Assembly: GCA_036172245.1 (NCBI GenBank)
Contig: JAYWIR010000072.1
Coordinates: 124,001-188,000 of the forward strand
Direction: 5' to 3'
DNA: 64,000 nt
From: Raillietiella orientalis
Taxonomy: Eukaryota
This document shows, piece by piece, positions 1 through 64,000 of this stretch. The notes beneath the pieces were generated by a model. It saw nothing but the letters and a program-made list of their open reading frames with translations. It had not been told where the DNA came from and ran no database searches. The translations under genes were made by a program, and so were the position numbers. Each line of letters opens with the position of its first letter. The first letter of the stretch is position 1.

Positions 1-1690
1 CCTGCGTACTGTTGGCAAGCAGCGTTTCCGAGTGGCAGGTGAACCCATGCCTGCACTTACGGACGCTGCCACCCACAGTTATCCAGGGAAACCAGTCGGG
101 TTTGATGCCATCCATAGCGAAGCACTGCACACATTCTCTCCAGCGTTGCTAAAGTGCTCGATGCTTCACTAGCACCATGGCAAAAGATTGATGCACTGAA
201 GACTTTTATCTTACCCTCGATAGTGCATCCGATGCGAATAGGATCAAAGCCTAAATCATTTTGGACTGCATTGGATTCCTTGGTTAGGAAGGAAGAGATC
301 CTCTAAAGGAAGAGATCCTCCCCCTTACGCAAGTCTTGTCTAGACAATACCTGTATGATAGTGTAGCTCGCGGTGGTCTCGGCCTGATGCTTCTGGAGGA
401 AGAGGCCGATATCATGGCCGTTGACTCAACCTTCAAGCTCCTTTCCTGTCCGCACCCACTCATTAAAGTAATGCCATCGGCTTCACTTTATGAAACTGTA
501 CGCAGGAAAGTAAGGCAAGAACCTTCCACGGCCCTTACAGCGGGATATCTTAATGGTGAAACCCATCTCACATTTGACCTTTTATCGGGGGAACCCGCAG
601 ACTATTGTTGCCGTGAACGCTAAGCCTCCAAGAGACTTCAACTCCAATGGGTCACAGAACCTGGCCAAATGTCGACTGAGCTGGCCTTAAAGACTATTCG
701 CGAGACCGACCGTAAAGTCGTTACTCGCCCCGTTCGAGGCTTGCGTCGCCTCAATCGCAGTGAGGCTCTTCGATCCAAACCGGATCAGGGCGGTATAATG
801 GACTGCTTGGTTCTGCACTTGGGATCTATGCCCTTCAGCGAGCGCTCAGAGCTCATACGTTTCTGTGACTGGCGCTTTATCCATCGAGCCCGCTTGAACC
901 AACTGTTCCTCAATGGAAACCGAAAGCGTCCAGGTTTACACGAGGCTTGTCGTCACTGCCCGTACACCAGGGAAACCCTGTTCCACGTGCTGTGCCATTG
1001 CACAAGACATTTAGCTACACGTATCCCGGCACAGCACAATCAAGTTCTCGATATCATTGACCAGTTTGCTCGGCCAAAATGTCGCCACCTCGCCATAGAC
1101 CGATCTGACCCGACGATCAACAGTTCCCTTAGACCAGACATTGTTGCGACATACGGTTGCCGTATGCTGATTGTGAACATCACCATATCGTTCGAGAATC
1201 CACGCGACGCCATGAATGCAGCACGGAGCTAAGCCAAAAGTGGAAGAATACCAGGAAGTCAGCAGGGAATACCAGGCACAGGGTCTCCGGGTCAAGGTAG
1301 ATGCGCTCGTTGTCGGGTAGCTTGGGATCTGGCACCCAAACAACCATGCAGTTTTCAGCTGTCTTTGCCTGGGCACGCAGGAAATAAAGGCGATACGCCC
1401 TAGAATCGTGTGCTCAGTGATCCGAGCAGAGAGGGATATCTACTTTGACCACAACACAACCCGTCCTTCAGCGACTACCGCTGGTGAACCTGCAGCGCAG
1501 GAGCTGAAACCGGCGGCTCATTTTAATTTTTTCATGGTGCAGGGCGGCTTAACGGGACCTAATCGAAGTTTGAGCCTATCATGTAGTTTCCCCTTTCGAA
1601 CTCCTCGTCCTCGGTGAACACTTGCGTGTCCCCAAGATTAATCCCCCTTTAAGAACTTCTTTGTACAAATGAAAACGTGGTTAACTAAAA
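1..1690 (+). mobile_element. RLE-type non-LTR retrotransposon (NeSL/Utopia/R5 group, subfamily A), 3' part, decayed
   Basis: Motifs LAPWQKIDALKTF, DWRFIHRARLN, CRHCPYTRETLFHVLCHC zinc knuckle, LRPDIV...FEN RLE domain; stops/frameshifts; ends aaaacgtggttaactaaaa. Confidence 0.9.
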
Positions 1691-1815
1691 GTCATCGTCG
1701 CCGCGTTCGGACGTGTTTCCGCGTCGCTCCGTTGTTGACTCTGTGAAATCGTTTTTGCGACTAAATAATCCCTAGATTCTGTAAGCATTTTTGCAATTTG
1801 CAAGAACTTGGTCCA
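1691..1815. repeat. Non-rDNA repeat abutting element 3' ends (candidate second target site), copy 1
   Basis: gtcatcgtcgccgcgttcggacgtgtttcc... recurs at 8391 and, shorter, at 13476, each time directly after an element 3' end. Confidence 0.7.
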
Positions 1816-2431
1816 TTCGGGACCCAAATATTTCTTGTTCTAAGTTTATTGAACTCAAAACATCAATTTTCAAGTGTTTTGTATAGTATCAACGGAAAGG
1901 TAGGACCATTCCTTTTGACTGTTTTTCCCGTAATATTGCGCCTGCCCGATAATTTGACACTTTGTGTTCAAATTATCGGCCTTTGAGATCGTCGTATCCC
2001 TGTTTGAGTTGAAGAAATAAATAATTTGCAATTGGAAAACATGGAAAATTGGAATTACGTGATCGCGTTGCTACTTAACGCGTAATACGTGGTATGAAAT
2101 TGCAAAGTTCTATTTTTTACTATACAGACAATGAATATGTTTTTAAAAAATTCCGCTTGCTCTAAAACCTCGAATTTGTTGTTTACTCCCCAGAGAAAAC
2201 CAACATTTAACTTTAAATTTTATTTTGAAAATTTCCGAAAATTATTGGCGCCATCTACATCGGTCTCGTTACTAAAAGTGATTTTCGATTATCTTGTTTT
2301 TAAGATGAACGTAATAAATTTTAACTTAATTGCTGCGATCTAGTTTAGTTGCTGGAAAGTGGTCTAACTTATTTTTCTTTCGATTCTTACAAACTAGGAA
2401 ATTTTCAAAATACCTTTGCATCTCTCACTTA

Positions 2432-2635
2432 GCCTCTCACTTATGCTCTCGTGTCTTTTCACAATGCCAGATCACAGTCAAGCTCAGAAGTCTTCTTTCC
2501 TTGCTGATTTTTCCAAGTCCGTTCCCTTGGCTGTGGTTTCGCTACATAGTAGGTAGGGACAGGGGGAATCTCGTTAATCCATTCATGCCCATGACTAATT
2601 AGATGACAAAGCACTTGGCTACCTTTAGACAGTCA
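2432..2635 (-). rRNA. 28S rRNA fragment spanning the R2 target region (diverged)
   Basis: Reverse complement of TGACTCTCTTAAGGTAGCCAAATG...GAATGGATTAACGAGATTCC...CCACAGCCAAGGGAACGG with substitutions. Confidence 0.92.
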
Positions 2636-5600
2636 ACGCCCACTGCAAGCATACAAGCCGGAATGTCCCATGCATGTGTCTCTGATCGACACTGAAGTAC
2701 GGACTGATAGTGCGGACGGACATTCTTCCCTGCCCCCTGCACTGATCGCACCGGCTGCCTCGGTCTTGGTCACTCGGACGGACGTTTCCAGGAGATATCA
2801 GCCGCGAGTGCTCATCACGACACTCTCCAAAGAAAACAGCTGACTTCATGCACCCAGCATCAAGCGATAGACTCCAACGCCAGGAACCAGCCACAATTCC
2901 TACCTCATTCAGCTCGGGCCACTCGACCCTGACGGTTGCCTCGCCATCGCAAACAGAAATGGGCCTATTCGACCAAATTCTCCCGAAGTGAACTGTAACA
3001 TTGCTGGTGCCTCGATCTCCTCCTCACTCTTCCCGAGTGAACTGCGTACGTGCGGGCGGTCGACGGAAAGAAGGGGAAGCGCAGGAAGTCGCGCCCTATC
3101 ATTCCCCCGCTTCAGCGACAAAAGCAACTGGCTCGATCGAATGATATACACCAAACTGACGTGGCTCTCGTCTTCCCGCCAGCTGGATGTGTTCCCCAGA
3201 TCTCCCCACTCCTGTCACGCTCAAGACCCTGTGTTAACACTCTTTTAGCCACAGGGAAGATAACCGCGCAAGAGCCGTCTCGCTCAGGAGAAATGACCTC
3301 AACGCCTGCCACTGGAGAAAAGCACCAGCTCCGCCAGCTGTCCTGACTGAGGACAACGTTCTTCTCGTACACCTCCCGACCAATAGCAGCATGTCATGTC
3401 CACTACCGAGATGCAGCTGGAACACCACAACCCAGCAACCCAGGAGCACATTATGTTCGCTGTGCCGACACCTAGAAATGGCTCACTGGAGTACGGTACG
3501 CGGTTCACATCTCATCTTCGGACGGTGCGACTCGCACGTATCGATACCCGTGGGGAGGCACAAATGCGGCCCTAGGGTGCTCCGTTTCATCGAACCTGCC
3601 CACTCCCCTTCCCGGAGTCGAATTGTGGTAAGAGCTTTTACCATCGTAAAGCGCTCGCCAACCACTCACGGTTTTAAGATTCTTTGGCCAGGGCAGAGGA
3701 AAAGACATATTTTCGAGGGTTGCGAGTGCAACGCGTTGATTCAGACGCGCTGCATTCCAGTCGCCAACCCATGCCATGGCCGAACCAGCCTCTTTGCCCT
3801 CGTACCCCAAACAGACAAGCACGTACTGTTCCCCCTCGCTGACTTGCGAACGCTCCACACTGACAGGACTGGAGAGCGATGAATCTCCTACTCCAACCGA
3901 CGATCCCGATGGCACGAACCGCCCCATCCATGCCTGATCTGCCTCATGATCTGAAATGGAAAACAGTACATTACCGCTGAGGACGCAAGAGCAGGACCTT
4001 CGCTGCCCAGACAATTCATCCTTACCCCCACGTCGAAAGGCAGCCATTGCACAGTGCGCGAGCGAGAGGCCGTGCGACATTGCCGCGAGCAACCGACTTT
4101 CGTTTCGTGCTTCTGGAAGACGAGAGTGAACAGGAATGCAGAGACTCACCCGTCGAAACAGCCGGCCACCCCCCTCATATCACCTCGTATCCATGAAAGC
4201 CGCAGGCAGCCTAGCTCGGGGATGGCACAACCCCGTGCAGTCATAGGAGATGCTACGAGAGTACTCGAGAGGCTCCTAGGGGTTCCCACGGTGGACAATC
4301 GGGATCTTGGCATAAGGTCTCTCTCGATTGCATATCAAGCGATCCGAAGCCAATTGTACTTGCGACCTTTCTCCGTTCCTGCTGTTGGCACAAGGAGATC
4401 GAATATGTCACCTCATGCACTCGAACGGCTATACGTCAGAAACAGGCATCGTGCTATTCGACAAATAATGGATGGTGCCCCAAACATTTGCAATGCAAAC
4501 CCGGAAAGGGTCCATGATTACTTCAGTGAACTTCTTGGTGACACACCAGGCTTTCGTGCCCCATCGTGGGACGCGCAACTAAGCCCTTAGCATGAGGAGC
4601 TTGATCTCTTTTCTTTCTCGGAGTCAGACATTGCCAGCTTTCTAAAACAATGCAAGGACACTGCGCCGGGCGCTGACGGTATCCATTTCTCCGCCTTTCG
4701 GAAATTGGACCCTGAATGCAAACTGTTAAGTGCCATGTTTAACATATGCCTAGCTCTCAGGAGGATCCCAGCAGAGTGGAAAGAATCCAGAACCCTCATC
4801 CACAAGGCGAATGCACAGGAACCTGGAGACCTCTCGCAATTTCGGTCAATAATCATCAATCGAACCATTGGGAAACTTCACCAAATGCATTGCTCGACGG
4901 ATGAGAAACTGGATTTTCCAGAACGACAAATTCGGCTTACACATCTGCAGAGGCGTGAAGCAAGGATGTCCGCTATCTGGACTGCTTTCGATGTTACCTT
5001 CGTGCCACTCTGCCAAGGAGTCAAACAAAATGTGCCCGGGATCACTGTCCTTGCATATGCAGACGACGTGGTCCTGCTTCCAGAGGACGCAGAAACGCTA
5101 CAAAAAGCGCTGGACATCTCTGGCGCCATGGCAGCTCGTCTTGGACTTTCTATCAATGCCAGGAAATGCTCCTTTTTCCACTATGACCAAAAACTTTCAA
5201 AACTGTCGGCCAGGAACTATTCCGAGTATCCAGTGAACCCATATCCGCACTATGGATGCCGGCACGTACAGTTATTCAGGGAAACCGGTAGTGCACAGCC
5301 ACGCGCTAGACGGTGAAATTACCGATTGTGTGGCCAAGGTTCTAGACTCATCACTTGCTCCGTGGAAGAAACTTGACTCCCTCAAGACGTTTGTGTTCCC
5401 TGCTTTCGTACATGCACTCAGAATGGGATCCAAACGAAAAATATTTTGGCCATCCATCGACACCATCATCAGAAAAGCACTTAAAGAGGAGGTCCTCCCC
5501 TTTGGCAGGCCTCCTCTACAGAGTACTTATGAGGACCAATCAGCAAGGGATGCCTTGGCATCATGCGACTCGCTGAGAAGGCTGACATAATGGCCACTGG

Positions 5601-6820
5601 CTCGGTCTTTAGACTCTTATCATGCCCCGATAAAATGATTCGTGAACTGGCATGGGCCTCCTAACGTGAAACTGACAGTCGCAAAACTCTGCAAGATCCT
5701 AATGCTGCCTGTAACTTGAACAAGGTGACGGCTCTTCCTCTCAACTTGCCTTCCGGAGACCCGGAGGACTTCTGGTCCCGTGCCATACAGGCTTCCAAAC
5801 GACTCACGCTAAGATAGCTCATATCGGACAACCAATTATCAATTGAGGTGGACGGTAAAACCTTGCGTGAGTCCGATAGGAAGATTGTCGCCAAATCGAT
5901 CTTTGGAATCCGACGACTGCGGTCCAAACCCGATCAAGGAAGAATCATCGTCTGCGTAGCTTTGCACACATCCTCGATGTCCTACATGGGCAATAGCCAT
6001 CTGATTCGCTTCTCCGACTGGCGTTTCTTGCAACGGGTTTGATCAGATTAAACCAACTCTTTCTAAATGGTAATCGCAAACGTTCCGGTTTCCATGAAGC
6101 ATGCCGCCACTGCCCCTACCCCAAGGAAACGCTCGCCCATGTGCTGTGCCACTGCACAAGACACTTAGGGACTCGAGGCGTATGGCTGTCTCAGGAATGT
6201 CGAGCACCGCGTTATCCCTGACTCGGATTCTGGGAAATCATAACGCGGTGCTCGACATTCCTGAGACAGCCATACGCCCCAAGCGGCGAGAACTGACGAT
6301 TGACCGTTACGATCCTTAAATCAACAGTTCCCTCCGACCTGACATTGTGGCAAGTGACATCGCCGCATGCTGCTCATCGATGACAGTCCCATTTGGGAAC
6401 AGAAAAACATCGATACACAAAGCCCGGGCTCGCAAAATTGCCAAACACCAAATCGCTAGAACAGAGTGTGAGGCGCAAGGTCGGATGGTCAAGGTGGACG
6501 CTATCGTAGTGCGGTCGCTAGAAAGCTGGCACACGAACAACGACGCGGTCCTCAGCTGCCTGGGCCTGAGCAACACGGGAATAAAGGCGCTTCGCTCCGA
6601 GATCGTGTGCTCAATGATCCGGGAGGCTCGGGACATCTATTTTGACCATCCCACGAGCCGACCGTCGATGGAAACCGGATTCACGGCCCGGACTCCCTTA
6701 TCACCACATGTCAACTCGTCCTAGAGCGGAGCAGCGTTCCGCAACCTTATCGACCTGTGACTGCAGTCAGTGATGAATCAGTAACCAGTGAACAAACAGT
6801 GCTTTCTGCCTCTTAGGGCT
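2636..6820 (+). mobile_element. RLE non-LTR retrotransposon subfamily A, 5'-truncated, internal RT deletion near 4930
   Basis: CPLPRC zinc-finger region, RGVKQGCPLSG, LAYADD, LAPWKKLDSLKTF, CRHCPYPKETLAHVLCHC, PFGNR, SWHTNND. Confidence 0.9.
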
Positions 6821-8390: not shown

Positions 8391-8515
8391 GTCGCCGCCG
8401 CTGCGTTCGGACGTGTTTCCACGTCGCTGCGTGCGGTTAATTTGCAAAGTCGCTTTTTGTGCATAATTTGCATTTAAAAGTGTGATCTACCTTGCATATT
8501 TGCAAGAAGTGGTAC
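8391..8515. repeat. Non-rDNA repeat abutting element 3' end, copy 2
   Basis: gtcgccgccgctgcgttcggacgtgtttccacgtcgc...tttgcaagaa, homologous to 1691-1815. Confidence 0.7.
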
Positions 8516-8518
8516 TTT

Positions 8519-11500
8519 TTAGATGACGAAAGTGTCTCTACGGAACTTCCGCTCGTCTCATTTGCAAACAGTGTGTATGAAGATTTTTCAGTAATGACCC
8601 CCATCGATTTTACGTTTTGTGCATCCTCTGTCCACAGTGAACCTTTCCACCAATTTTAATGCCAGTGTGGTGGAAATTGTGGTTCCTGTGGACAATTCCG
8701 TCTTCCGCTTGCATACTGCCATGGCTTTGACCAGAGAGCATGCTTGCCGGTAAGCTAAAAGGGTTGCATCGACCTAATCGAGAGCTTGGCTCCACGCAAG
8801 TTGTACTCAATCACTTTGTGACTCTTGCAACCTCTGTGGTTAGCTTGACTTAGCGAAGAGTCGCACGCCATCTTGGAACGATGCCGCCGTCTTACTGTAC
8901 TCTATCTGTGGCAAAGGAATTGTAAATTTTTCATGCCACAGACGCTCCAGTGCCATGCTCCTTGCCTGACTACGTTTGCATCCACTGCGACAGACATTAA
9001 AAATCGCGTGCGCAAACTTCAAGCACACATGAACCGCATTCATGGCGTTCATGTTTAGGTGGTGCATTTTCTCTGTTAGCTGCCATAAGAGTGAGAACAC
9101 TAAGCAGGTGCTGTACCACCATCGGTGTCTCAATCCTCACGTGCCGCTCCCAGAAATGCTCATCGCACTTAAATACCGGTGCCCTAAGTGCAATGCATCC
9201 TTTGGTCGTCCCTCCCTTAGGAGAGCACACTATAAGTGGAAGCACCTAAACATGGACCGTGCTTTAGGTGCGGCGAATGAAGCGCATGAGGATTGCGGAC
9301 AAGTCATCGAGTTTCCCAACTCCTGGGACGAAGTCGACTATCCAAACTCGTCCAGCAGCTCGACGTCCTTACAGAACCTTAATTGGTTCAACTTGTTGCC
9401 TCCAAGTAACCACAGCACCACGCAGTAAGACAGAATGACCACTGCAGCGAGGACGAAAATGGACAACGAAATGCCTTCAACATCGACGGCGGCTAAACAT
9501 CATCTCAGCCTGCTACATGCTCTGAGCGGGCCGCCTGTCTCGGTACCGACACGAGCTACAAAGGACCTAAATCATCAATATCAGCCCAGAGCACTTGTGA
9601 CCAGGCTCTCTAGTGCTGAGATTGACTATTTTACTCGTCCACATCAGTGCAACGTGCCTCCCAGAGCCCTTACTCCTGTTCAATGGGCACTCGACTCGGA
9701 CCCTTGCCTCTCCCTCGCAAACTAGAGCTGATCTCCTTGAGCAACTCTCCATGAGGGATTCTACCACAATACTGGTGCCTCGTTCTCCTCCATTCGCTCC
9801 TCCTTTGCATATCCCATATGTTCATGCAGTCAAGAGAAAGAAGCCTAGGCGCAGACAACAGCGCCCGGTCATCCCACGGCTACAACGTCAAATGCGGCTC
9901 TCCCAGGAGCATAATGGACAATTCGTGATGCGAGACCCAGATCTTTCACCTAGTGAGCGTGCACCAAATAGATCACCACCGCGGCCTCGCTCCTTAGCAC
10001 ACAAGAACCCGATCCCGGTCACACAGAGAGTGAATGAACCGCCTTTCCCTTCCCAGATAGAGAATGCCTCCTCGTCTACTACTCGACAATCGGCACCTGT
10101 CGCACCTTCGATCCTGACTGAGGATGATGTCCTCCTGGTCTACCTCCCGAACAACACCAGCATGCCCTGCCCACTTCCACGATGCACATGGAAGGCCACA
10201 ACACGGCAAGCCAAGTCCACTCTAGGTTCGCTGCGCTGACAGCTTAAGATGGCTCATTGGATTACGGTACTTGGTTCTCTTCCCCAAAACATTACTGCCC
10301 TCCCACGTTTGGACCTTTGTTTTGTTTTGTTTTTATCATCACCCTGCGCATCAGAAGGACCTCGCCGGAATAGCGCCGGCAAGCAGCAAGCTGTTTTGGT
10401 GTGGTGGAACTTCGGGTACGCCACGCGACAATTCTGTGTATTTTTAGTTTCCATAAACAATTGCCCCGGCATATCAGGGTGTGAAGACAGCAGCGCTGTC
10501 CCTGCTTGCCTTGCAACGCCTCCCCACCAGAGATCTGCCTCGAGGAGCCAAAGGGAGGTTAGGAGAAGGTGGTCGGATCCCCTCAGGGGAACAGCCAGAC
10601 TCCTTGAAGACATTGGGGCTTATCCACCAACTGTGGACAGATAAAGCCTCGCCATGCGTGCACTTGACTCTTCCTATAGCACAATCAGAGATGCTTTCGG
10701 ACTACGCCCCTTTGCTGTGCTCACGATACATGCGAGACCCTCGAGTGTCACCTCCATCCCTCCAAAGGTTGTGCAGTCAGAACCGCCGCCGAGCAATTCG
10801 GCTCATATTGGACGGACCCCGGTTAAGTGCCATGTTGATCGGCAAGGAACACAGGCGTACTTTGCCCATCTCCTTGCGGCTACTTCCGGGTTTCAGCCAT
10901 TGAGCTGGAGCTCTTAACTTTCTGTGAACTATGAGACGGTTGACTTATCTTCTTTCGACCCGAAGGAGATTGCCAGCTGCTTGCGGTTATGTGAGGACAC
11001 TGCTCCGGGAGCAGACGGCAACCTCTTTTCGGCTTTCCGCTTCCTTGACCCCGAATGCCGCTTCCTCACTGCAATCTTCAACATTTGCCTCGCACACCGC
11101 CGGATCCCGCCGGAACGGAAGGTCTCGCGCACGACCCTTATTCCAAAATCGCAGCATACCCAGCTGGAGCATCTCTCCCAATTTCGCCCGATTGCGATCA
11201 GTCGCACCATCGGAAAATTTTTTTTCAAAGTGACTCGCAGGGCGAATGCGCGAATGGATCTTAGACAACCGGGCATTGGGGCCACATCAAAAGGGCTTCC
11301 TTCCCTATGATGGTGTCCTTGAGCACAATTTCATGCTGAGGCACCAGATGGACTACAGCAGGCGTTATCTTCGCACATTGTGCGTTGCCTGGCTGGACTT
11401 GAAGGACGCTTTTGCCTCAATCTCGCACTTCCAGCTCTTCTCCTCCCTCCAATGTGCTGGTGCTGACGATAGCCTCATAGAGCTTATCTGCCAGATGTAC

Positions 11501-13475: not shown

Positions 13476-13497
13476 CGTCGCCGCCGCCGCGTTCGGA

Positions 13498-43330: not shown

Positions 43331-43334
43331 TGAA

Positions 43335-50877: not shown

Positions 50878-51281
50878 GCGTCCGGAAGGCTCCGTTCGGC
50901 CCTTGAAAATCTGAGTGAGGTAGAACGAATCTCGTGCCAGATCGTACCCATATCCGCAGCAGGTCTCCAAGGTGAACAGCCTCTGGCATGTTAGAACAAT
51001 GTAGGTAAGGGAAGTCGGCAAGCCGGATCCGTAACTTCGGGATAAGGATTGGCTCTGAGGGTCGGGCCGGTCGGGCTTGGCCGGGAAACGGTAGTGGTTT
51101 CCTCGCTCGGTCGGGGCGCGCGCGTGCCGGCGGGTCCGCTCGGGGTACGCTCAGCGGCTGCCTGCGGCGCTCGCCGGTCGCGCTCCGGTCGGCCGTCGCC
51201 CGCCGCCGCGCGCCGTTTTCTCGGCGCGCGGCCGGGCGCTCTGGTCCCGGAGCGTTTCGGGCGGCATGCAGCGATCGACTC
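50878..51281 (+). rRNA. 28S rRNA fragment
   Basis: CGTACCCATATCCGCAGCAGGTCTCCAAGGTGAACAGCCTCT...GTAAGGGAAGTCGGCAAGCCGGATCCGTAACTTCGGGATAAGGATTGGCTCT; paralogous to ~62175-62696. Confidence 0.95.
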
Positions 51282-54200: not shown

Positions 54201-54337
54201 CTTTAGGGAATTCAGAGTTCTTTTAGGGTCCTCCGTTTTAGTAAACCAACTACAAGAGGGAATGATGCAAGCTAATGCCCTGTTTACCGGGAATTTGACA
54301 TGTAGATGATTATCCTGGGTGAGAATAATATCTGCAT
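51282..54337 (-). mobile_element. RLE retrotransposon subfamily B, long, truncated within the RLE domain
   Basis: Zinc fingers, complete RT, zinc knuckle, LRPDLV then 28S; one frameshift near 51876. Confidence 0.93.
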
Positions 54338-54371: not shown

Positions 54372-57300
54372 CGGATGGGAGATCTAAAGGGGGAACCGTC
54401 TCCCCACTGAGATATTTTGCAATTAGCTCCGCTGAAGGGTTTTGTCGTGTCTTGCGGCGCACGGTCTCCCTCAGGGAGGACCAGGCCAGCTCACGGATCA
54501 TGGGGTCCGGGCACGAAAGGATGTTGAATGCCGAGTCGGTGGCCATGATTTCGGCCTCTTCGGCAAGTATCATGATCCCAAGGCAGCTCTTACTGACCGG
54601 ACCATATAGGTATTCGGTCGAGGATGCCTGGGTCAGGGGGAGGATTTCCTCCTTTAACGCCTTGCGAATGATTTGGTCGAGCGATTGCCAGAAGGTTTTC
54701 GGCTTCGACCCCATTCGGAGTGCGTGCACGAAGGCTGGGAAAACAAAAGTCTTCAATGCGTCGAGCTGCTGCCACGGCGCGAGTGGACAGTCCAGTACCT
54801 TCGCAACGCTGCCAGTAATGTCCGCTTCAAGCGCATGGCTGTGCATGGCGTCGAAGCCTACGGGCTTTCCAAGATAACTGTGCCTATGTCGTTCAGCACA
54901 GGGATGGGTTCCCCTGTTATGCTGAATTTCCCTCGCCAAAGGGTCTTGGGAGTTCGGGGATCGTAGTGCAGGGAGGAGCACTTCTTGGCATTGATGGTGA
55001 GGCCCAGGCGTGTCGCCATGGAGCCTGCCGCATTCAACGCCGCTTGCAATGTTTGTACGTCCTCAGTTAGGATGAGCAGATCATCCGCATAAGCCAGCAC
55101 CTTGGTTCCCGGGACATGCTGTTTGATTCCTTGGCACAACGGCTCAATCGCAATATCAAACAGCAGTCCGGATAGCGGGCAGCCCTGCTTTACGCCCCTA
55201 CATATATGTATTGGAGGCGAGAGACCGGCAGATGCAACGATCTGCGTGATGTTGTCCGTATACATCTCGCACACGAGTTCGACGAATCGGTCACCGGCTC
55301 CCGCACACTGAAAGGATCACAGGAGCTGTGAATGTGGAATGGAGGCAAATGCGTCTTTTAGGTCTATCCAGGCAGCACAGACGGTTCGATGGTGGCGCTT
55401 GCTATAATCGAGCAAGTGGGCTAGCATGAAGTTATGTTCGAGAACACCATCGAACGGGAGGAAGCCCTTCTGGTGCGGGCCGAGAATGTTATTTTGTATG
55501 ATCCAGTCCCTCACTCGGCGAGCCATGCACTTGGTAAATATTTTACCTAACGTGAGGCTTATGACAATCGGGCGAAACTGAGAAATGTCTTCAGTGTCCT
55601 GATTATTTGCCTTGGGAATGAGTGTAGTCCTGGACTCTTTCCACTCGGCCAGTATGCGCCGATGGTGAAGGCAGAGGTTGAACATGGCACACAAGAATTT
55701 GCAGTCTGGGTCCACTCTGCGGAACGCAGAGTATGGAATCCCATCAGCGCCTGGCGCTGTGTCCTCGCACTGCCTGAGGCAGTTGGCAACCTCGGCTTCC
55801 GTAAAGGGGGAGAGGTCCACTTCCTCATGCTGGGGACTTAAGTTTGCATTCCATGATAGGGGGCGAAAGCCTGGAATTGCACCGAAGAGGGCGGTATAGT
55901 GTTGAATTATTTGATCGGGATCAGCAGTGCACACAGTGGAAGTACCGTCCATGATTTGGCGGATGGCTCGCCTCCTGTTCCTGCCATACAGGCGCTGGAT
56001 GTATTGCGGTGTTATTACACTTTGTCTGCGTTCGGGCCTCGGCACCGTAAAGGGGCGGAGCCGTAGCTGGTGCTGAATCGTTTGGTATGTAAACGATAGC
56101 ACCCTGATCGCATGACCCCAGTGGTCCACCGATGGGGCTCTGTGCAAGAGGTTGTCCAGCGTTTGGGTAGCTCCCTGAAGTGGTGGGCGCAAGTCAGGTC
56201 GCCTGGACACTTGTTGCCGTCGCACTGTTTGGGGGTGGGTTGTTTTTGGAGGTGAATGGCCGGTCCTCATGCCGGGTGAGTCCCTTCCCTCCTGCTCACT
56301 TTCATCCTCGAGCAGTGCAAATCGGGAGCCCGTCGCTCGTGGTGCCAATGCGGTATTCCGTCTCGGTGCCAGACGAGTGGGCTCCCGAGTGGCAGCGCCG
56401 CGTGGTCGAGTACTGACGTTAGAGGCGAGTCTCCTTGGTTGACGTCGACGGTGTTGGACTGTGCACCACCCTTGATCTTGAGGCGGGTCAGGGGGGGGTG
56501 CATCTGGCACCAATGTCGCAACCTCTGGGGATTCCCTAGTGTTTTGTTCGATTGCAGGCGTGCTCCGAGATGGGATCTGTCTGTGCTCTGTAGCAGACAC
56601 TGTACTGCTTGTGCCCCTGCCGACACCAGGGTCCCGTTGACGCTCATGTTCCCGGACGATCGCGTTGTGCCAGCGTACATGGTTCGCCAGTGCCTTTCTA
56701 TTGAAGAAGGTCTGGGCACAGTTTTGCTGTTGGCAGCGGAGAGGAGCCGGGGGTGTGATCGGGGCGAGCCTCGGCCCACAGCGGTGATGCCATACAGGTA
56801 TGGCCAAGCGCTGGTTACAGCGGCGACAGAGGAGGTGGGTGCCACGTACCGGTATCCGATGCGCGGTTTGTATGTGTCGTCTAAGCGACCCCAGCAACCG
56901 CTTGGGTTCCATCCCGGAGGTGGCCCATCTGCATCGCGGTAACGGGCATTCCATGTTCCTGGTCGTTGGATGGAAAACGATGAGAACGTCCTCCATCGTC
57001 AGAATGGGAGCCGTGTTGCTTTGGCTGTCCATCGGTGGAGGCTCAAAACTCACCCTGGGAGCCAGGAGAGCTATTTCTGGAACCGTATCGGCGCGTGTCG
57101 GGCTCTCGTGCGAGCGTAATCTGGCATTCGTCCCACGTGGGCATTGCTGATTATTACGTGGTCGCACGTGTGTTCTCGGACGAGCCGAACATTCTGACCG
57201 CACTCTGTTCATGCCTGATGGGCCTGGTGGCTCATTAGCTGGATTATTGCTGCTCTTTGCGTGGTTTGGCGCATTCTGCCGTAAGCGTTGAAACCGAGGG

Positions 57301-58847
57301 ATGATCGGTCTTGCGGTCTTCGCTTCGATTCGACCGCCCGTATGTACGCAGGGTGTACGGGAGGCGGCGCAGGAGGGAGGCGCGGGAACAAGACACAGGT
57401 TGTCGCCCTCGGTGACAGGTCTTGGATAAGTTCAAGACCAGTTTGTGAGGGGGAGGCAACAGTCAACGTGGAGTGTCCGGACTGTAGCGATTCCTGTTGC
57501 GGGACCATGCTCTCAGAGGAGGTAACACATTGAGGAGGGCGTGCGAAGTAATTGATTTCGGCGCTTGACAGCCTCGTTACCATGACTCTGTGCTGGTATG
57601 CCCGGTCGAGGTCCATCCTGCCTTGTGGATGCACCGATGACGGTGGCTCCAATAGAGGAGGGGGCAACTGGATTGAGTGCTCTGCCACAGTGAGCTCTGT
57701 TGGCACTACAGTGTCCAGGAGTGATGTTGGAGAGTCGGGCGTGCCGATGACTTTGGGGGTTGACCTGGAGGCCGGGCCGGGGGTGTGTAGGCTCCTCTGC
57801 TTGGGAGTACTGCTGCTGCTCGGTCCGGGATGGTTAAACCAGTTCATCTTTAGCCGGGATAGGTCTCTTGAACTCCACGACGAATCGGTTGAATCATCCT
57901 TGTCCCAAGAGTCTGGGAGCCCAATTGTAGTGCCGCAGTCCTCTCGTGCCTCGTTCGCAGCACCCTGTACTCTGTCCATGTTCAAGTGTTTCCACTTGTA
58001 ATGGGCTCTCCTGTGGCCGGGCCTGCCGAAGGATGCATTGCATAACGGGCACTTATATTTCAGTGTTAAAAGCATTTCTGGTAGTGGCACAGGGGGATTG
58101 AGGCATCGGTGCTGCGCTAGCGGTTGCTGCGTGCTCTCATTCTTGTGACATACTACACAGAAAAATCTGACGGCCGAAACATGAGTGCCGTGTATTCGAT
58201 TGAGGTGGGTCTTGAGGTTTCTAACTCGGTTCTTAACATCATTTGCCATGGTGGCAAACCAGCAGTCTGGATGTGGGCATGGCACCGGGAGGTCTGTGCC
58301 ATGGGAAATCCAAAGTTCACGCCCGGTAGAGAGGGTGCAGTGAGACGATGGCATACTTAAAAGATGGCGCCTGACGCTTCGCGTGATCACGTGGGAAGAA
58401 GTCGCAGAGCCAATAGGAGAGCGAGTTCTCCGAGCGGACCAATGGGAGCGCTCGGAAGGGACGCTAAGTTTTCCCGCGCTAAGCGAGGTTACAAAGGATG
58501 TTGAAGATCGATGTGGTCGATCTCTTGGATCAACCACCGTGGTTCAATTCCGCACAAAATCAGTCAAAGAGGACGTGTTGAGGGCCCGGGTGATCGGTTC
58601 GAACTGTCAAACCCTCTTACCTTCCCGGCAAGTGTGCTCTCTGGTCTAGGCCATGGCAGCACGAAGGCGGGAGATGAGAATGTGCACAGCACCCACAAAA
58701 ATTACCACACAGGCACAAAAGTTGGTAAAAAGGTTCACTGTGGGCAGGAGATGCACAGAACGAAAATTCATGAAGGGTCATCCCTGAAAGTTTTTCACAA
58801 TCAAGAGTCAAACTTCATGCCGCGTCGGAGCTCCGCTCAGACACGTC
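54338..58847 (-). mobile_element. RLE retrotransposon subfamily A with intact 5' end, 3'-truncated after the thumb
   Basis: ORFs 57209-58537, 55317-57212, 54858-55274 and 54310-54981 form one frameshifted ZF-RT polyprotein. Confidence 0.93.
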
Positions 58848-59033
58848 CGTCGTGTAAGGAGTGACGCGCATGAATGGATTAAGGAGATTCCCACTGTCCC
58901 TACCTACTATCTAGCGAGACCACAGCCAAGGGAACGGGCTTGGAAAAATCAGCGGGTAAAGAAGACCCTGTTGAGCTTGACTCTAATCTGGCATTGTGAA
59001 GAGACATGAGAGGTGTAGCAGAAGTGGGAGGCG
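58848..59033 (+). rRNA. 28S rRNA fragment downstream of the insertion site
   Basis: GTGACGCGCATGAATGGATTAA...CCACAGCCAAGGGAACGGGCTTGG...GACCCTGTTGAGCTTGACTCTA. Confidence 0.95.
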
Positions 59034-59034: not shown

Positions 59035-61692
59035 TCCCGCTGGCAATCTCGGTTCGCGGCCGCGGTCCGCTCCCTTGCTCCTGCGGCGCGCCGCTACGTG
59101 TATCGCCTTTCCTCCTCTCTGCCTAACGAGTAATGCCATCGGGCGTGATTCGCGACAGCCTTGCTATTGAAGAAGTGTGTATCGCAGTTCGGTTCTGGGC
59201 AGGGAAGTGGCGCCGGTTCCTCAAATCGCATCGCCCGGGGTCTCCAATTTCCAGGATTCAGATTAACATTGAGAAGTGTTCGACACTTTATTAGGGGGAG
59301 ATGCTTTGGACTCTGTGTTGTTTCCATGGTAACCAGTGTCGGAATTATATATTGAATCTTTTCCATCGCACTGATACATCATGTGTTCCAAATTTCCACT
59401 TTTTGTGTTTTGTAATCAATTGAAAATCAGCAGACTTCAATATTGCACTGTTGCGACTCTTCCTGACGCTTCCATTTGCAGTGAGTGGCAAATTCCCTTC
59501 ATGGAAAGCCGCACAGCATTCCAATTTCCAGGATTCAAATTGACATTGAAAAGTGTTCGACACTTTATTAGGACGGGGTACTTTGGACTCTGTGTTGTTT
59601 CCATGGTAACCACTTTCGGAATTAAATGTTGAATGTTTTCCATCGCAGTGATTCATCATGTGTTCCACACGGGGATCGGCACATTCACGTTGCATCGTCC
59701 ACACACGAGGTGGGAGCTACGTACCGGGATCCAGTGAGCCCCTCTCAGGTGTCCGCGTAGCGATCCTAGAGTAGACTTGGCCTGTTGGGTACTAGTCTGC
59801 CACCTGCAGCGTGGTAATGGGCTAGGCATGTTGGTGCTCGTCGGCAAGCATACCAGGAGAACATCATCCTCAGTCAAGGCCGATGTCACTGCAGTTGCCG
59901 ATTGCTCTATTGTTGACGAGGGAGTAGTGGTTCTCTGGGGGTATACAGACACCGGCGATTCGATCAGCTTCCGAGCGTTTGTGGTCGAAGTTCCACATGT
60001 TTGTGAAGGGCGCATTGCAGGCGCTTGAGTTGGAACACGAGTGGTCGGTCGCCGGTCAGTGCTTCCATCTTCAATCGACCGTCACAAGCCTGAGTCAGCC
60101 GCATCTGTCGCTGCAGACGGGGGATAACCGGGCTTTGTTGGCGGCGTCTCGGTTTTTTCCGTTCGACTGCACGCACATATGCCGGGTGTACAGGCGGGGC
60201 AGGTGGAGAAGAGTGTGGAATCTGCAGTGCAGATTCCACACTCTTCCACGACCTCTTTTGTCGGGGAGACTTGTTCAAGCAACTCGGCTCCAGTTTGAGA
60301 GGGAGATGCAAGGGTGAGTGTAGAGTGACCGGAGAGCCGCGATTCCGGTATCGGAGTTACCATTCTGGGGTCCATATTGCACTGTGGAATGCGGGTGAAG
60401 TATTCATGTTCGGCCTGCGACAGCCTGGTCACCAGTACCCTTGGTTGGAACGCATGCTCGAGGTCCTTTGGGTTCGGGACTGAGACAGGCTGTCCGAGTG
60501 AGGGAGATGGCAGGCGGACGGGTTGTTCTTCCACCGTCGAATTCGACGGTACTTCGGTGTCTAGGATGGAAGATGCAGGGTTCGTTGTCCGGTAGGCTTG
60601 AGTATTCACATTGTTGCTCCTAGGTGTGGTGTGGTTCCCATTCCGACGTGGGGTGCTGTGGTCACCTGGTATGATCTGATTAAACCAATTGTTGTGCAAC
60701 TGTGAAAGGTCTGCTGAGCTGCAAGATGAGTCGGGGAAGTCTGCATCGTACCAGAAGTTGGAATATTCGTTGCCCTCCCCACAGTCCTCAAGGGCTTCAT
60801 TAGAGGCACCGAGAGCACGATCCATATTCAAGTGCTTCCATTTGTGGTGCGCCTTTCGGAGCGAATTGCGTCCGAATGATGCACTGCATTTTGGGCACTT
60901 GTGTTTTAGCGTTAACAACATTTCTGAGATAGCCACAGGGGGATTGTGGCACCGATGCTGAGTAAGCATCTGGTTGCTGTTCTCGTTTTTGTGGCATTTC
61001 ACACATCAAAAGCGAACGCCAGGAATGTGCACTCCGTGAATGCGATTCATGTGTGCTTTCTAGTTCCGCACACGGTTCTTACTGTCTGTCGCCGTAGTGG
61101 CGGATACACAGTCAGGGATCGCACAGGGCACTGGAATGTCCATTCCATGTGAAATCCATAATTCCCGCTCCACGGAGAGCATGCAATACGACGGCGGCAT
61201 CAGTTCAAGATGGCGCGCGACGCTTCACGCTGTCACGTGGGAGGGAGCGAGAGACCCAATGAGCGAGCGGGTTCGCCGAGTCGACCAATGAGATCGCTTG
61301 GTGGGGACGCTAGTTTTTACCGCGCATACCGATGGAAGAAAGGAAGTTCAGGAACCGAGGTGGTCGATCCCTGTGGTCGACCACCGTGGTTCCAAGTTTC
61401 GGAATGGGAATAAGGGCGACGTAGTAAGGACCCGAGCGGTCAGTTCCGTTGATCAATCCCTCTTACCTTCCAGACAAGTGTGCTCTCTGGTCTGAGCCAT
61501 GGCAGCACACAGGCGGGAGACGAATTTGTCCACTGCGACCACAAAATTTTCCACACTTGCACAAAAGTTGGTGGAAAGGTTCACTGTGGGTTGCGGGTTC
61601 GTGAGACGAAGAATCACGGGGCGTCACCCCTGAAAATCTGCACTAGCAGCAGTTGCACACTGATGTGCGCGGGAGCTCCGGCTAGACACGTC
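59035..61692 (-). mobile_element. RLE retrotransposon subfamily A, 5' part only
   Basis: HKCPKCSASFGRNSLRKAHHKWKH, LTEDDVLLVCLP..PLPRC, conserved 5' end. Confidence 0.88.
59244..59667. repeat. Insertion of two ~146-bp direct repeats around a ~130-bp spacer
   Basis: ccaatttccaggattca...catcatgtgttcca at 59244-59389 and 59521-59667. Confidence 0.88.
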
Positions 61693-62714
61693 CGTCATCT
61701 AAGCAGTGCCGCGCATGAATGGATTAACGAGATTCCCACTGTGGGATGAACCAAACGTTGGGTTACGGCGCCCGACGCGACGCTCATCAGATCCCATGAA
61801 AGTTGTTGGTTGCTATGGACAGCAGGACGGTGGCCATGGAAGTCGGAATTTGCTAAGGAGTGTGTAACGACTCACCTGCCGAAGGAACTAGCCCTGAAAA
61901 TGGATGGCGCTCAAGCGTCGAGCCTATACCGAACCGCCGGGACAGAGCCGTTCCTGCCTTCCGGGCCGTTCCGCAGCGGCAGCAGCAGGAGCGTCGGTTC
62001 GCGTCGCGGCCGGAAGGGAATCCGCTTCTCGCTGCAAAGCAAACGAGCTCGGAGACGTCGAACTCGGTACCCCGGGAAGAGTTTTCTTTTCTGCATAAGG
62101 GATTGCCTCGTACCCTGGAATCGACTCGTACGGAGAGAGAGTCGGGCTCCCGAAGGGCGCCGTGGTTCTTGCGGCGTCCGGAAGGCTCCCTTCGCCCCTT
62201 GAAAATCCGAGTGAGGTAGAACGAATCTCGTGCCAGATCGTACCCATATCCGCAGCTGGTCTCCAAGGTGAACAGCCTCTAGACGATAGAATAATGTAGG
62301 TAAGGGAAGTCGGCAAACCAGATCCGTAACTTCGGGAGAAGGATTGGCTCTGAGGGTCGAGCCGGTCGGGCATGGCCGGGAAACGGTAGTGGTTTCCTCG
62401 CCGTGGCCGGGGGCTAACGAAAGATCGGCGTTTCCTCGCTCGGTCGGGGCGCGCGCGTGCCCGCGAGTCCGATCTGTGTACGCTCAGCGGCTGCCTGCGA
62501 CGCTCGCCGGTCGCGCGCGGTCTTTCGTAGCGATACCCGTCTCCCATCCCGGCCTTGCGCGGGATTCCGACCAGCGGAACGGCCTCAGTTGACGCTCCTG
62601 TCGGCCGTCGCCCGCCGCCGCGCGCCGTTTTCTTTTCGGCGCGCGGCCGGGCGCTCTGGTCCCGGAGCGTTTCGGCCGGCATGCAGCGATCGACTCAGAA
62701 CTGGCACGGACAAA

Positions 62715-62746
<32 letters not shown>

Positions 62747-62774
62747 CGCGATGGCCGTTGCCGGTGTTGACGCG

Positions 62775-62806
<32 letters not shown>

Positions 62807-62850
62807 AGTGGAGAGATTCAACCAAGCTCGAGTAAACGGCGGGAGTAACT
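61693..62850 (+). rRNA. Permuted 28S rRNA fragment: ~50 nt downstream of the target fused to ~1.1 kb upstream of it
   Basis: cgtcatctaa...gattcccactgt|gggatgaaccaaacg...GGACGGTGGCCATGGAAGTCGG...GTAAACGGCGGGAGTAACT. Confidence 0.95.
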
Positions 62851-64000
62851 TTTATTGGCCCACGCTTTTTACAGAAATGTTTGCCCTAGGAGGGTGAATG
62901 AACTGTATCTATGGAGGGTCTGGTTTTACACACACACTGTTTTCACACTAAATTTAAAGATCTTTGAGGTCAGGGAAAGCCGCACAACACCAGGACGAGT
63001 CCACCGCTGGTGATAAGGGGGCTCGAGTCGTCGATCCGGTGTCCGTCGACGGTCTGCTGGTGGTATGGTCAAAATAGATGTCCCGATCTGCCCGGATCAC
63101 CGAGCACACGATCTCAGGGCGAAGCGCCTTTATTTCTGTGTTGCTCAGGCCCAGGCAGCTGAGGACTGCATCGTTGTTAGGGTGCCAGCTTCCTAGCGAC
63201 CCTACAACGAGTGCATCCACCTTGACCATCCTTCCCTGCGCCTCGTAGTCTCTCTGCAGCACACGGTATTTGGCTATCTTGTTGGCTCGGGCAGTCTCCA
63301 GTGACGCTTGTCTGTTCTCGAAGGGGACAGTCACGTCGACAAGGATGATGCGTCGACCATCAGATGCCACGATATCCGGGCGTAGGGAGCTGTTGATGGC
63401 GGGGTCGGAGCGGTCGATCGGCAGCTCAGGCCATTTGGGTCTGATTACTGGTTCAAGGGTGTTCAGGACCGCATTGTTCAGGACCGCCCGAGGATTCGTG
63501 TTCCCAGGTGTCTGGTGCATTGACACAGCACGTGGGCTAATGTTTCTTTCGGGTAGGGGCAGTTTCGGCATGCCTCTTGGAAGCAAGGGCGCTTGCGGTT
63601 CCCATTAAGAAACAACGGATTTAAGCGTGCCCGGTGTAGGAATCGCCAGTCACAGAACCTTATCAATCGACTGTTGTCGAGAAAAGACATGGACGCAGGG
63701 TGCAGCGCCACGCAGTCGATGATTCGGCCTTGATCTGGTTTGTTTCGCAGGCGTTCAAGTCTCTCCAACCTACGGATGCCCCGTATAGATCTCGCCACGA
63801 TCTTACGGTCAGCCTCACGTAGTGTCTTCCCGGAAACCTCTATCGAGGCTTGGCAGTCGGATATACGCCAGCAAAGCGCTAGGCGCTTAGATGCTTCCCG
63901 GGCACGGGACCAAAAGTCTGCGGGGTCGCCAGATGGGAGGTCTAGAAGGGGTGTCAATTCCCCGTTGAGGTACCTGGCGATTAGTTCCGAGGTGGGACTC
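62851..64000 (-). mobile_element. RLE retrotransposon subfamily A, 3' end joined antisense to 28S
   Basis: DWRFLHRARLN, CRNCPYPKETLAHVLCQC, LRPDIV, VVGSLGSWHPNND; terminus (rc) aaaaagcgtgggccaataaa|agttactccc. Confidence 0.93.

What the first reader, a model, noticed from the sequence alone, without database searches (positions are those of the whole stretch)
1..64000. Strand-polarised, retrotransposon-built archive of viral, symbiont and TE sequence (candidate bidirectional small-RNA immunity locus)
Seen: every recognisable retroelement piece (RLE and Tx1) and the CRESS rep reads + left of ~16.3 kb; every retroelement piece, rep and the qinvirus-like N gene reads - right of ~27.7 kb; 28S pieces are always opposite. 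The switch lies between two arms of an inverted repeat. Cargo includes an RNA virus gene, ssDNA virus genomes and endosymbiont fragments. Known: flamenco-type and mosquito piRNA clusters hold single-orientation TE and EVE fragments; R2-type RTs jump between RNA templates. Inference: outward transcription from the centre, or in the rRNA sense direction, would give antisense RNA to nearly all TE and viral cargo (cap excepted), making this a heritable memory locus written by a site-specific RLE retrotransposon.
Basis: partly seen in the sequence, partly recalled or inferred. Interest (0 to 1): 0.92.

Follow-up and report, generated by a model that had tools for sequence, protein, structure and literature searches.

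The report
Collapsed rDNA array with backwards R2-like retrotransposons
This stretch of an unidentified eukaryote looks like a decayed ribosomal-DNA array packed with R2-like retrotransposons inserted backwards into the 28S gene, later invaded by viral and bacterial DNA and partly duplicated in mirror image; whether it makes defensive small RNAs could not be tested.

Summary
The strand polarity is real. All R2-like pieces read + at 32-16,320 and all read - at 27,995-63,999. The six 28S pieces I mapped lie opposite to them. The switch falls between the arms of an inverted repeat, 15,630-19,778 and 33,337-39,698, which are 78-93% identical and differ mostly by substitutions.

The polarity has a structural explanation. 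The elements sit antisense in 28S at a single site about 15 nt upstream of the canonical R2 site. Consecutive copies keep only short 28S flanks, so this reads as a collapsed tandem rDNA array whose orientation was fixed by the array. One old inverted duplication produced the mirror half.

The cargo does not look written by a reverse transcriptase. The CRESS virus carries cap, rep and an intact origin hairpin, which points to integration as DNA. The bacterial scraps sit at the centre with the opposite polarity. Only the N-like ORF is embedded among R2 pieces.

"Tx1" was not confirmed, and 62,957-64,000 is an R2 ORF, not 28S. The antisense 28S-specific R2-like lineage is the most unusual result; I found no report of it in print.

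The parts
1..1691 (+). E1: R2-like element, RT C-terminal part, RLE and 3' end (5' part cut off by the window start)
   Evidence: tblastn; 3' terminal motif
2432..2635 (-). 28S piece downstream of the insertion site (Rfam LSU model about 2266-2411+), abutting the 5' end of E2
2636..6757 (+). E2: near full-length R2-like element (N-terminal zinc fingers, RT, RLE), frameshifted
8511..13470 (+). E3: near full-length R2-like element with a short 28S-derived leader at 8,511-8,598; preceded by another element's 3' end at about 8,373-8,390
13490..13860 (+). E3b: heavily 5'-truncated R2-like copy ending at the 28S junction
13810..14260 (-). 28S piece upstream of the insertion site; the 28S proper starts at about 13,861, and the range given is the blastn match, which runs into the last ~50 nt of E3b
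   Evidence: Rfam 13,801-14,004, model 2121-2337, 91.9 bits; motif; blastn to 62,904-62,412 at 74.5%
14590..14909 (+). Internal R2a-like RT scrap
14883..15619 (+). CRESS Rep C-terminal (helicase) piece, 62% nt identity to 43,102-42,395
15630..19778 (.). Left arm of the inverted repeat (holds a faint RT scrap on + at 16,057-16,320)
21084..27352 (.). Patchwork of short bacterial gene scraps. On -: YebC, GrpE, HHH_2, TrwB, PolA, class I tRNA synthetase, up to 24,637. On +: M24 peptidase, RpoC, DDE transposase/TAXI receptor, TerC, FlhB, from 24,728
27995..28423 (-). RT scrap in the unique centre; best solved match is R2Bm
30926..32095 (-). Divergent RT scrap in the unique centre; best solved matches are R2 proteins
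33337..39698 (.). Right arm of the inverted repeat (longer than the left; extra blocks)
40742..41265 (-). CRESS rep copy 2 (N-terminal part)
41342..41376 (+). CRESS origin hairpin with TAGTATTAC in the loop
41612..42274 (+). Putative CRESS capsid ORF with an arginine-rich N-terminus
   Evidence: by inspection; no Pfam hit
42521..44221 (-). CRESS rep copy 1 (HUH endonuclease and helicase, with an internal partial duplication)
44222..45580 (-). R2a' : 5'-truncated copy of the R2a family (78% nt identity to 51,284-52,319)
45996..47805 (-). R2d: 5'-truncated R2-like copy (from mid-RT to the C-terminus)
47903..48961 (-). N-like ORF, open for 353 codons, probably derived from an RNA virus
49453..50217 (-). 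R2c: internal R2-like RT piece that ends abruptly in the RT
50631..51279 (+). 28S piece (model about 1490-2085), joined to R2a by a deletion inside the RLE ORF
51285..54383 (-). R2a: 835-codon open frame (zinc fingers and RT) plus RLE (CCHC, PD motif)
54313..57431 (-). R2b: R2-like element in three frames
57212..58800 (-). XR1: 5' part (zinc-finger N-terminus and leader) of a further R2-like element
58849..59032 (+). 28S piece downstream of the insertion site, abutting the 5' end of XR1
59124..60012 (-). R2b-like N-terminal (zinc-finger) scrap lying between XR2 and the 28S piece at 58,849-59,032
   Evidence: R2b N-terminal ORF residues 92-215 and 220-258
60085..61650 (-). XR2: 5' part of a further R2-like element
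61665..62850 (+). 28S: a short post-site piece (to 61,742) fused to model about 1150-2264, ending at the insertion site
62851..64000 (-). Right-end R2-like element: 3' end and RLE ORF (runs off the window)

Best explanation
The window is a fossil of a tandem rDNA array. Its 28S genes each carried an R2-like (RLE-type) non-LTR retrotransposon inserted antisense to the rRNA, at one site about 15 nt upstream of the canonical R2 site.

Deletions then removed nearly all of each rDNA unit. What remains is elements lying head to tail, with 80-1,200 nt 28S stubs on the opposite strand. The shared orientation of the elements is therefore inherited from the array and the fixed insertion orientation. It need not reflect selection.

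A CRESS-DNA virus genome integrated as DNA, and an N-like gene of a probable RNA virus landed among the R2 pieces. Later, one inverted duplication produced the mirror-image left part. It covered at least an R2a scrap, Rep and about 4 kb of unidentified sequence. Bacterial DNA scraps fill part of the spacer between the two copies, perhaps as filler at the rearrangement junction.

Shown: the polarity, the junctions, the repeat, and the nature of the cargo. Inferred: the order of events, the collapse by deletion, and the filler origin of the bacterial DNA.

Whether the locus is transcribed or makes small RNAs is unknown. The architecture allows it but does not require it.
For: 1. R2 identity.
- The 835-aa frame at 51,879-54,383 (-) hits RVT_1 at E 3e-29.
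- Its best solved relatives are R2 proteins, at E 2e-36.
- The downstream frame aligns its CCHC and PD motifs to residues 931-1006 of R2 entry 9nl2.

2. Antisense insertion at a single site.
- Two 3' junctions (13.86 kb and 62.85 kb) join the same element terminus to 28S ending at ...GGGAGTAACT.
- Four element 5' ends (E2, E3, XR1, XR2) are preceded by antisense 28S from just after that point.

3. Tandem units with deletions. At 61,665-62,850 a post-site 28S stub is fused directly to 28S model position about 1150, which then runs up to the site. The R2a/28S join at 51.28 kb cuts the RLE ORF, which continues in the sister copy.

4. Polarity without exception.

5. Inverted duplication.
- Collinear inverted matches: 14,841-14,901 with 45,520-45,460 (79%); 14,913-15,619 with 43,102-42,395 (62%); 15,630-19,778 with 39,698-33,337 (78-93%).
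- Over 3,389 aligned columns there are 404 mismatches (220 transitions, 184 transversions) against 113 gap columns. That is evolutionary divergence, not read error.
- The spacer at 19.8-33.3 kb matches nothing else in the window.

6. CRESS entered as DNA. Rep is on -, an arginine-rich cap ORF is on +, and a hairpin with TAGTATTAC lies between a second rep copy and cap.
Against: - The three left-hand copies E1, E2b and E3 are followed by a recurrent sequence of about 45 nt rather than by recognisable 28S. I could not explain this.
- E3b and the right-end element are 81% alike, with 74-89% alike flanks. They could be two copies of one insertion, so independent junctions at the site may number as few as 2-3.
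- The left Rep piece is only 62% like its best right-hand match, while the arms are about 85% alike. A single duplication then needs an extra assumption: a lost paralogous rep copy next to the right arm.
- No 18S, 5.8S or spacer remnant was found. The rDNA-array origin therefore rests on 28S stubs alone.
- The N-like ORF sits between two R2 RT pieces on the same strand with no poly(A). That fits reverse-transcriptase template switching as well as it fits an ordinary insertion.
- The assembly could not be checked against reads.
Confidence: 0.62

Rival explanations
1. The locus is a working bidirectional small-RNA (piRNA or siRNA) source. Transcription outward from the centre, or in the rRNA sense direction, gives RNA antisense to the R2-like elements, rep and the N-like gene, so the locus serves as a heritable memory.
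For: - The architecture fits: dense fragments on one strand per half, converging on a centre, and viral sequence embedded among them.
- Mosquito core piRNA clusters are reported to be enriched for non-retroviral EVEs in antisense orientation (abstract of bioRxiv 10.1101/2022.08.22.504762, seen in the listing).
- Because the elements are antisense to 28S, any rRNA-sense read-through would be antisense to them.
- GC skew changes sign near 22 kb.
- The arms share 21 exact complementary runs of 21-68 nt, so a read-through transcript could form partial dsRNA.
Against: - There is no expression evidence of any kind.
- The polarity is fully explained by insertion mechanics plus one duplication.
- The non-R2 viral cargo amounts to about two independent events, so its agreement with the polarity is not significant.
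- Cap and all of the bacterial scraps would be read in sense.
- The host, and hence whether it has a PIWI pathway, is unknown.
- The skew can equally reflect the base composition of the elements' sense strand.
Confidence: 0.25
2. The array was written by reverse transcription. Repeated target-primed reverse transcription took place at a reusable 28S half-site, with the R2-like enzyme jumping between RNA templates, so that viral and other RNAs were copied in the same sense as the element.
For: - The N-like ORF is flanked on both sides by R2 RT pieces on the same strand. It has no poly(A), and about 95 nt separate its stop from the next RT piece.
- E3b is a copy of about 370 nt stacked directly behind E3 and in front of the 28S flank.
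- Template jumping by R2 enzyme is established knowledge that I recall.
Against: - CRESS cargo carries both strands' genes and an intact origin hairpin.
- The bacterial scraps have the opposite polarity and are not next to element 5' ends.
- The 28S stubs from beyond the site lie between copies. That fits separate rDNA units better than repeated use of one nick.
- Only one cargo item (N) fits this model.
Confidence: 0.1
3. Assembly artefact: the inverted arrangement, or the joins between blocks, are chimeric.
For: The region is repeat-rich and rDNA-derived, which is hard to assemble. Only one public run holds even 8% of the sampled words of 39.5-49.4 kb. No read support could be obtained.
Against: - The arms differ by substitutions far more than by indels, and they carry large private blocks. 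A fold-back read artefact would not look like this.
- There is a 13.5-kb unique spacer between them.
- Long open frames of up to 835 codons argue for accurate sequence.
Confidence: 0.08

Closest known systems
R2 non-LTR retrotransposons (RLE class, 28S rDNA-specific)
   Same: Single long frame with N-terminal C2H2-type fingers, RT, and C-terminal CCHC plus PD-(D/E)XK-type endonuclease. R2 proteins are the best solved relatives. The element uses one precise site in the most conserved part of 28S.
   Different: It is inserted antisense to the rRNA, so the priming nick must be on the 28S sense strand, and the site is about 15 nt upstream of the R2 site. R2 is cotranscribed with 28S (abstract of PMC12192640, listing) and its fixed nick is on the antisense strand (passage of PMC5035012). 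Protein identity to database relatives is only 28-32%. No R2 ribozyme or R2 3'UTR family was matched in Rfam.
Uni-strand piRNA clusters (flamenco type) and mosquito EVE-bearing clusters
   Same: Nested, fragmentary TEs in one orientation, with viral fragments among them.
   Different: No small-RNA or transcript data exist here. The builder is an R2-like element in rDNA remnants, rather than the LTR elements described for mosquitoes (listing). The two opposed halves arise from an inverted duplication.
Endogenous CRESS-DNA virus integrations
   Same: Rep with HUH and helicase parts (Viral_Rep E 9e-15), an arginine-rich cap on the other strand, and a hairpin with TAGTATTAC.
   Different: More than one unit length is present, and the two rep copies are only about 72% alike. 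The integration is embedded in an R2/rDNA fossil, and a further rep piece lies in the mirror half.
Degenerate R1/R2-inserted rDNA units outside functional arrays (recalled from Drosophila and stick-insect work; only a reference title was seen)
   Same: Inserted units decay and persist as arrays of dead elements with 28S stubs.
   Different: Several deeply divergent lineages (35-70% aa identity between copies) sit side by side, and the orientation is antisense.

Membership tests
R2 / RLE non-LTR retrotransposon | Reverse transcriptase domain of the non-LTR type | tested here: met
   RVT_1 E 3.3e-29 on 51,879-54,383 (-). Best PDB hits are R2 proteins, E 2.4e-36.
R2 / RLE non-LTR retrotransposon | C-terminal CCHC motif and restriction-like (PD...) endonuclease, with no APE domain | tested here: met
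   Alignment of 51,285-51,875 (-) to 9nl2 residues 931-1006 covers the C..C...H...C and PD motifs. No Exo_endo_phos hit in 549 ORFs.
R2 / RLE non-LTR retrotransposon | N-terminal zinc fingers (and Myb) | tested here: inconclusive
   C2H2-type patterns are visible, but the Pfam zf hits are below cut-off. No Myb hit.
R2 proper | Insertion at the canonical 28S site, in the rRNA sense orientation, cotranscribed | tested here: not met
   The elements lie on the strand opposite to all six 28S stubs. The junction is at Rfam LSU model position about 2264/2266, 15 nt before the AAGG/TAGCC site, whose position is recalled.
R2 proper | 5' HDV-like ribozyme and R2 3'UTR RNA element | tested here: inconclusive
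   No such Rfam family at gathering score or at E<=0.001 in the window. These models are narrow.
piRNA cluster | Dense TE/EVE fragments with strand bias | tested here: met
piRNA cluster | Abundant 24-30 nt small RNAs with 1U/10A signatures, antisense to the cargo | not testable with these tools
piRNA cluster | Defined promoter(s) and transcription direction; host with a PIWI pathway | not testable with these tools
   The host is unknown and no genome is held.
CRESS-DNA virus (endogenous) | Rep with rolling-circle endonuclease and SF3 helicase | tested here: met
   PF02407 E 8.9e-15 and 9.3e-11. Walker-A-like GGNGKT is seen.
CRESS-DNA virus (endogenous) | Origin hairpin with a conserved nonanucleotide | tested here: met
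   41,342-41,376: 11-nt stem arms around a loop holding TAGTATTAC.
Qinviridae small-segment protein | Sequence or fold membership in the qinvirus putative structural protein family | not testable with these tools
   There is no model for it in Pfam or PDB. The AlphaFold2 model is too poor to use, mean pLDDT 36. The only support is size: relatives lie on contigs of 1.7-2.1 kb with one ORF, like the 1,729-nt small segment described in PMC6955108 (passage).
Tx1 / L1-clade APE retrotransposon | APE endonuclease and L1-type RT | tested here: not met
   No APE family hit. A scrap that I read by eye as APE-like at 49,244-49,453 (-) gave only spurious repeat-protein hits.

The most novel reading that the evidence does not exclude
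An R2-like lineage that nicks the sense strand of 28S and inserts backwards has turned a stretch of rDNA into a polar stack. In that stack any rRNA-sense or outward transcription is antisense to every element, to rep and to a captured RNA-virus N gene. The locus would then be a retrotransposon-built small-RNA memory that grows next to a reusable 28S half-site, with at least the N gene acquired by template switching of the R2-like enzyme.
Probability: 0.1. Interest if true: 0.85.

Novelty: new variant of a known kind. Interest (0 to 1): 0.5.

Why it matters
R2 is the textbook site-specific retrotransposon and is now a genome-engineering tool. Its biology rests on sense insertion and cotranscription with rRNA. 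A relative that uses almost the same 28S site in the opposite orientation would need its own promoter and a top-strand priming nick. It would also be read as antisense RNA by the rDNA promoter, which offers a natural route to silencing. That makes a concrete question testable.

The locus also shows how a strand-polarised TE and virus "archive" can arise purely from insertion mechanics and one rearrangement. This is a caution against reading polarity alone as evidence of a small-RNA immunity locus.

Tried and rejected
- Whole-genome search: no genome is held for this window.
- Sequencing runs: one DNA(?) run with an 8% share was listed, and no RNA holder.
I sent nothing further, so there is no read evidence for or against the structure or its expression.
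- N-like ORF:
  - No Pfam family and no solved relative.
  - AlphaFold2 model unusable, pLDDT 36, so no fold search was run.
  - No relative in viral contigs.
  - The protein atlas gave only weak leads to RNA-virus clusters, scores 0.79-0.83.
- Bacterial donor: two genome-contig scans and a plasmid tblastn found no close source. The plasmid blastn only revealed an rpoC scrap.
- Arms: no Pfam family in 129 short ORFs beyond one weak zinc-finger hit, and no relatives for the 170-aa arm ORF.
- An APE/Tx1 scrap that I read by eye near 49.3 kb: searched first in the wrong frame, then no Pfam hit and only spurious fibronectin-repeat hits. Rejected.
- No tandem repeats.
- No 28S in 6,600-9,000 by Rfam.
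- My early idea that 62,957-64,000 and its left-hand look-alikes were 28S was rejected. They are the conserved C-terminal ORF and 3' end of the element.
- Repeated priming at one nick as the main builder was rejected in favour of collapsed tandem units, because 28S stubs from beyond the site lie between copies.
- Literature on an antisense 28S-specific R2-like element: three searches aimed at it, one related search on R2 orientation and cotranscription, and passages of four papers showed none. Subscription-only papers are not covered.

Full report
WHAT THE WINDOW IS

It is eukaryotic DNA and no genome is held for it. GC content is 37-58%, and GC skew is negative on the left and positive on the right, changing sign near 22 kb. 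Rfam finds only eukaryotic LSU rRNA. There is no SSU, 5.8S, ribozyme or R2 RNA element.

CHECKING THE OBSERVATION

I translated every stop-to-stop frame of 75 aa or more (144 on +, 140 on -) and scanned them against Pfam.
- RVT_1 was found in 3 + frames, all at 4.6-12.4 kb, and in 4 - frames, all at 28.0-57.4 kb.
- Viral_Rep was found in 2 - frames, at 40.8-44.2 kb.
- The longest frame (835 aa, 51,879-54,383 -) has R2 proteins as its best solved relatives, E 2e-36, ahead of LINE-1 ORF2p.
- The frame that follows it aligns its CCHC and PD motifs to the endonuclease part of an R2 protein.

Using 7 R2-like frames from the window's right half as tblastn queries gave 91 HSPs, self hits included. 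These merge into 8 + blocks, all within 32-16,320, and 9 - blocks, all within 30,926-63,999.

A self-comparison shows the inverted repeat 15,630-19,778 against 39,698-33,337. Over 3,389 aligned columns the arms differ by 404 substitutions (220 transitions, 184 transversions) and 113 gap columns. The right arm carries about 2.2 kb of private sequence. The 13.5-kb spacer matches nothing else in the window. This looks like an old duplication rather than a fold-back read.

CORRECTIONS TO THE OBSERVATION

- The stretch 62,957-64,000, which the Rfam global alignment ran through as LSU, encodes the C-terminal part of an R2-like protein on the - strand. It is 47-66% identical to the other copies. Its look-alikes at 1.3, 6.5 and 13.5 kb are the conserved 3' ends of the left-hand elements, not 28S.
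- True 28S pieces are 2,432-2,635 (-), a weak leader at 8,511-8,598 (-), 13,810-14,260 (-), 50,631-51,279 (+), 58,849-59,032 (+) and 61,665-62,850 (+).
- Tx1 was not found. No APE family appeared in 549 scanned frames. The two RT scraps in the centre match R2 proteins best. A scrap that I took by eye for an APE domain failed every test.

WHY THE 28S PIECES ARE OPPOSITE

At 13.86 kb and 62.85 kb the same element terminus (...AAAAGT) is joined to antisense 28S that, in the rRNA sense, ends ...GGCGGGAGTAACT.

At the other end, the 5' end of E2 at 2,636 abuts antisense 28S that in the rRNA sense starts TGACTGTCTAAAGGTAGCC. This corresponds to LSU model position 2266 onward. The 5' leaders of E3, XR1 and XR2 are likewise preceded by antisense 28S from beyond that point. 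These three share a deletion of about 17 nt at the site.

So the elements lie antisense in 28S, between model positions about 2264 and 2266. That is 15 nt before the AAGG/TAGCC position that I recall as the R2 site. In target-primed reverse transcription this requires the priming nick to be on the rRNA sense strand. For R2 the fixed nick is on the antisense strand (passage of PMC5035012), and the element is cotranscribed with 28S (abstract of PMC12192640, listing).

Three searches aimed at this point, a related one on R2 orientation and cotranscription, and passages of four papers gave no report of an antisense 28S-specific R2 relative.

Caveats:
- E3b and the right-end copy may be duplicates of one insertion.
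- E3, XR1 and XR2 share one leader variant.
- Independent junctions may therefore be as few as two or three.
- Three left-hand copies end in a recurrent sequence of about 45 nt that I could not place.

HOW THE HEAD-TO-TAIL ORDER AROSE

Reading the - strand at the right end gives, in order:
- an element;
- 28S from the site back to model position about 1150;
- then, fused to it, about 80 nt of 28S from beyond the site;
- then the 5' end of the next element.

This is what two neighbouring inserted rDNA units look like after a deletion has removed the rest of the unit. The join of R2a to 28S at 51.28 kb is another deletion: it cuts the endonuclease frame, which continues in the sister copy at 44.5 kb. 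I therefore read the stacks as a collapsed tandem array. The uniform orientation comes from the array and from site-specific insertion.

The copies are deeply divergent from one another (35-70% aa identity) and from database proteins (28-32%, 3 hits), so several old lineages are present.

THE CARGO

CRESS virus:
- Rep is on - (HUH and helicase parts).
- A 221-aa frame on + has an arginine-rich start typical of capsids (by inspection).
- Between a second, partial rep copy and cap lies a hairpin at 41,342-41,376 with TAGTATTAC in its loop.
- Both strands' genes and an intact origin mean the virus entered as DNA, in more than one unit length.
- The two rep copies are about 72% alike. A third rep piece, on + at 14.9-15.6 kb, is 62% like the right-hand helicase part and directly abuts the left arm.
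- Together with a 61-nt R2a scrap (14,841-14,901 against 45,520-45,460, 79%), this shows that the inverted duplication reached beyond the arms. Rep polarity on the two sides is therefore one event, not two.

N-like ORF (47,903-48,961 -):
- It is open for 353 codons.
- It has 4 relatives at 28-40% identity. One cluster includes unnamed Bemisia tabaci proteins.
- A fifth relative fills a 1,673-nt metagenome contig as a single 399-aa ORF.
- That size matches the 1,729-nt small segment described for a qinvirus (passage of PMC6955108), but no model, name or fold confirms the family.
- It lies between two R2 RT pieces on the same strand, without poly(A).

Bacterial scraps:
- On -, up to 24,637: YebC, GrpE, HHH_2, TrwB, PolA, a class I tRNA synthetase.
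- On +, from 24,728: M24 peptidase, RpoC, a DDE transposase fused to a TAXI receptor piece, TerC, FlhB.
- Six of these pass Pfam's own cut-offs; the rest are weaker.
- They lie in the unique spacer, and their polarity is the reverse of the elements' polarity.
- No donor was found.

The logical point stands. Transcription outward from the centre, or in the rRNA sense, would be antisense to the elements, rep and the N-like gene.

But the polarity needs no selection to explain it. The independent non-R2 events that agree with it number about two. The CRESS and bacterial cargo were not copied in by the retrotransposon.

The decisive data are missing. No RNA run holds the stretch, and the one DNA run holds 8% of the sampled words.

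Loci of this build are often small-RNA sources in arthropods (listing), so I leave about one chance in four that it is one. I give about one in ten to the full 'written memory' reading.

VERDICT

The most notable result is a by-product of the check: an R2-like lineage that appears to use the R2 neighbourhood of 28S in reverse.

Noticed in passing
window 41,342-41,376: An apparently intact CRESS origin hairpin: 11-nt stem arms around a loop holding TAGTATTAC. It lies between a partial rep copy and the cap ORF, so more than one unit length of the viral genome is integrated.
   Followed up: yes
window 21,084-27,352, switch at about 24,640-24,728: Six bacterial gene scraps on - are followed by five on +. 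This is the reverse of the retroelement polarity and has roughly 1% probability under random orientation. It could reflect two donor pieces, or replichore strand bias of a donor genome. No donor was found.
   Followed up: partly
window 1,692-1,740; 8,391-8,440; 13,478-13,500: Three left-hand R2-like copies end in the usual terminus but are followed by a shared GC-rich sequence of about 45 nt (containing GCGTTCGGAC) instead of recognisable 28S. Its origin is unknown.
   Followed up: partly
window 47,903-48,961 (-): The N-like frame has no internal stop over 353 codons, although its neighbours are frameshifted. It lacks an ATG near the position where its relatives start.
   Followed up: no
window 1-64,000: GC skew is negative up to about 22 kb and positive beyond, strongest at 14-18 kb and 38-44 kb. 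CpG observed/expected is lowest (0.42-0.69) in the arms and the centre.
   Followed up: partly
window 15,630-19,778 and 33,337-39,698: The arms contain no recognisable gene apart from a faint RT scrap. They share 21 exact complementary runs of 21-68 nt (721 nt in all), so a read-through RNA could form a patchy hairpin.
   Followed up: partly
window 43,415-44,221 and 42,521-43,120 (-): Rep copy 1 carries an internal partial duplication: about 73 aa around the Walker A region occur twice, at 49% identity.
   Followed up: no
window 21,545-21,784 (+): A weak hit, below cut-off, to a nematode chemoreceptor family (Srbc, 20.1 bits) in AT-rich sequence. It is probably spurious.
   Followed up: no
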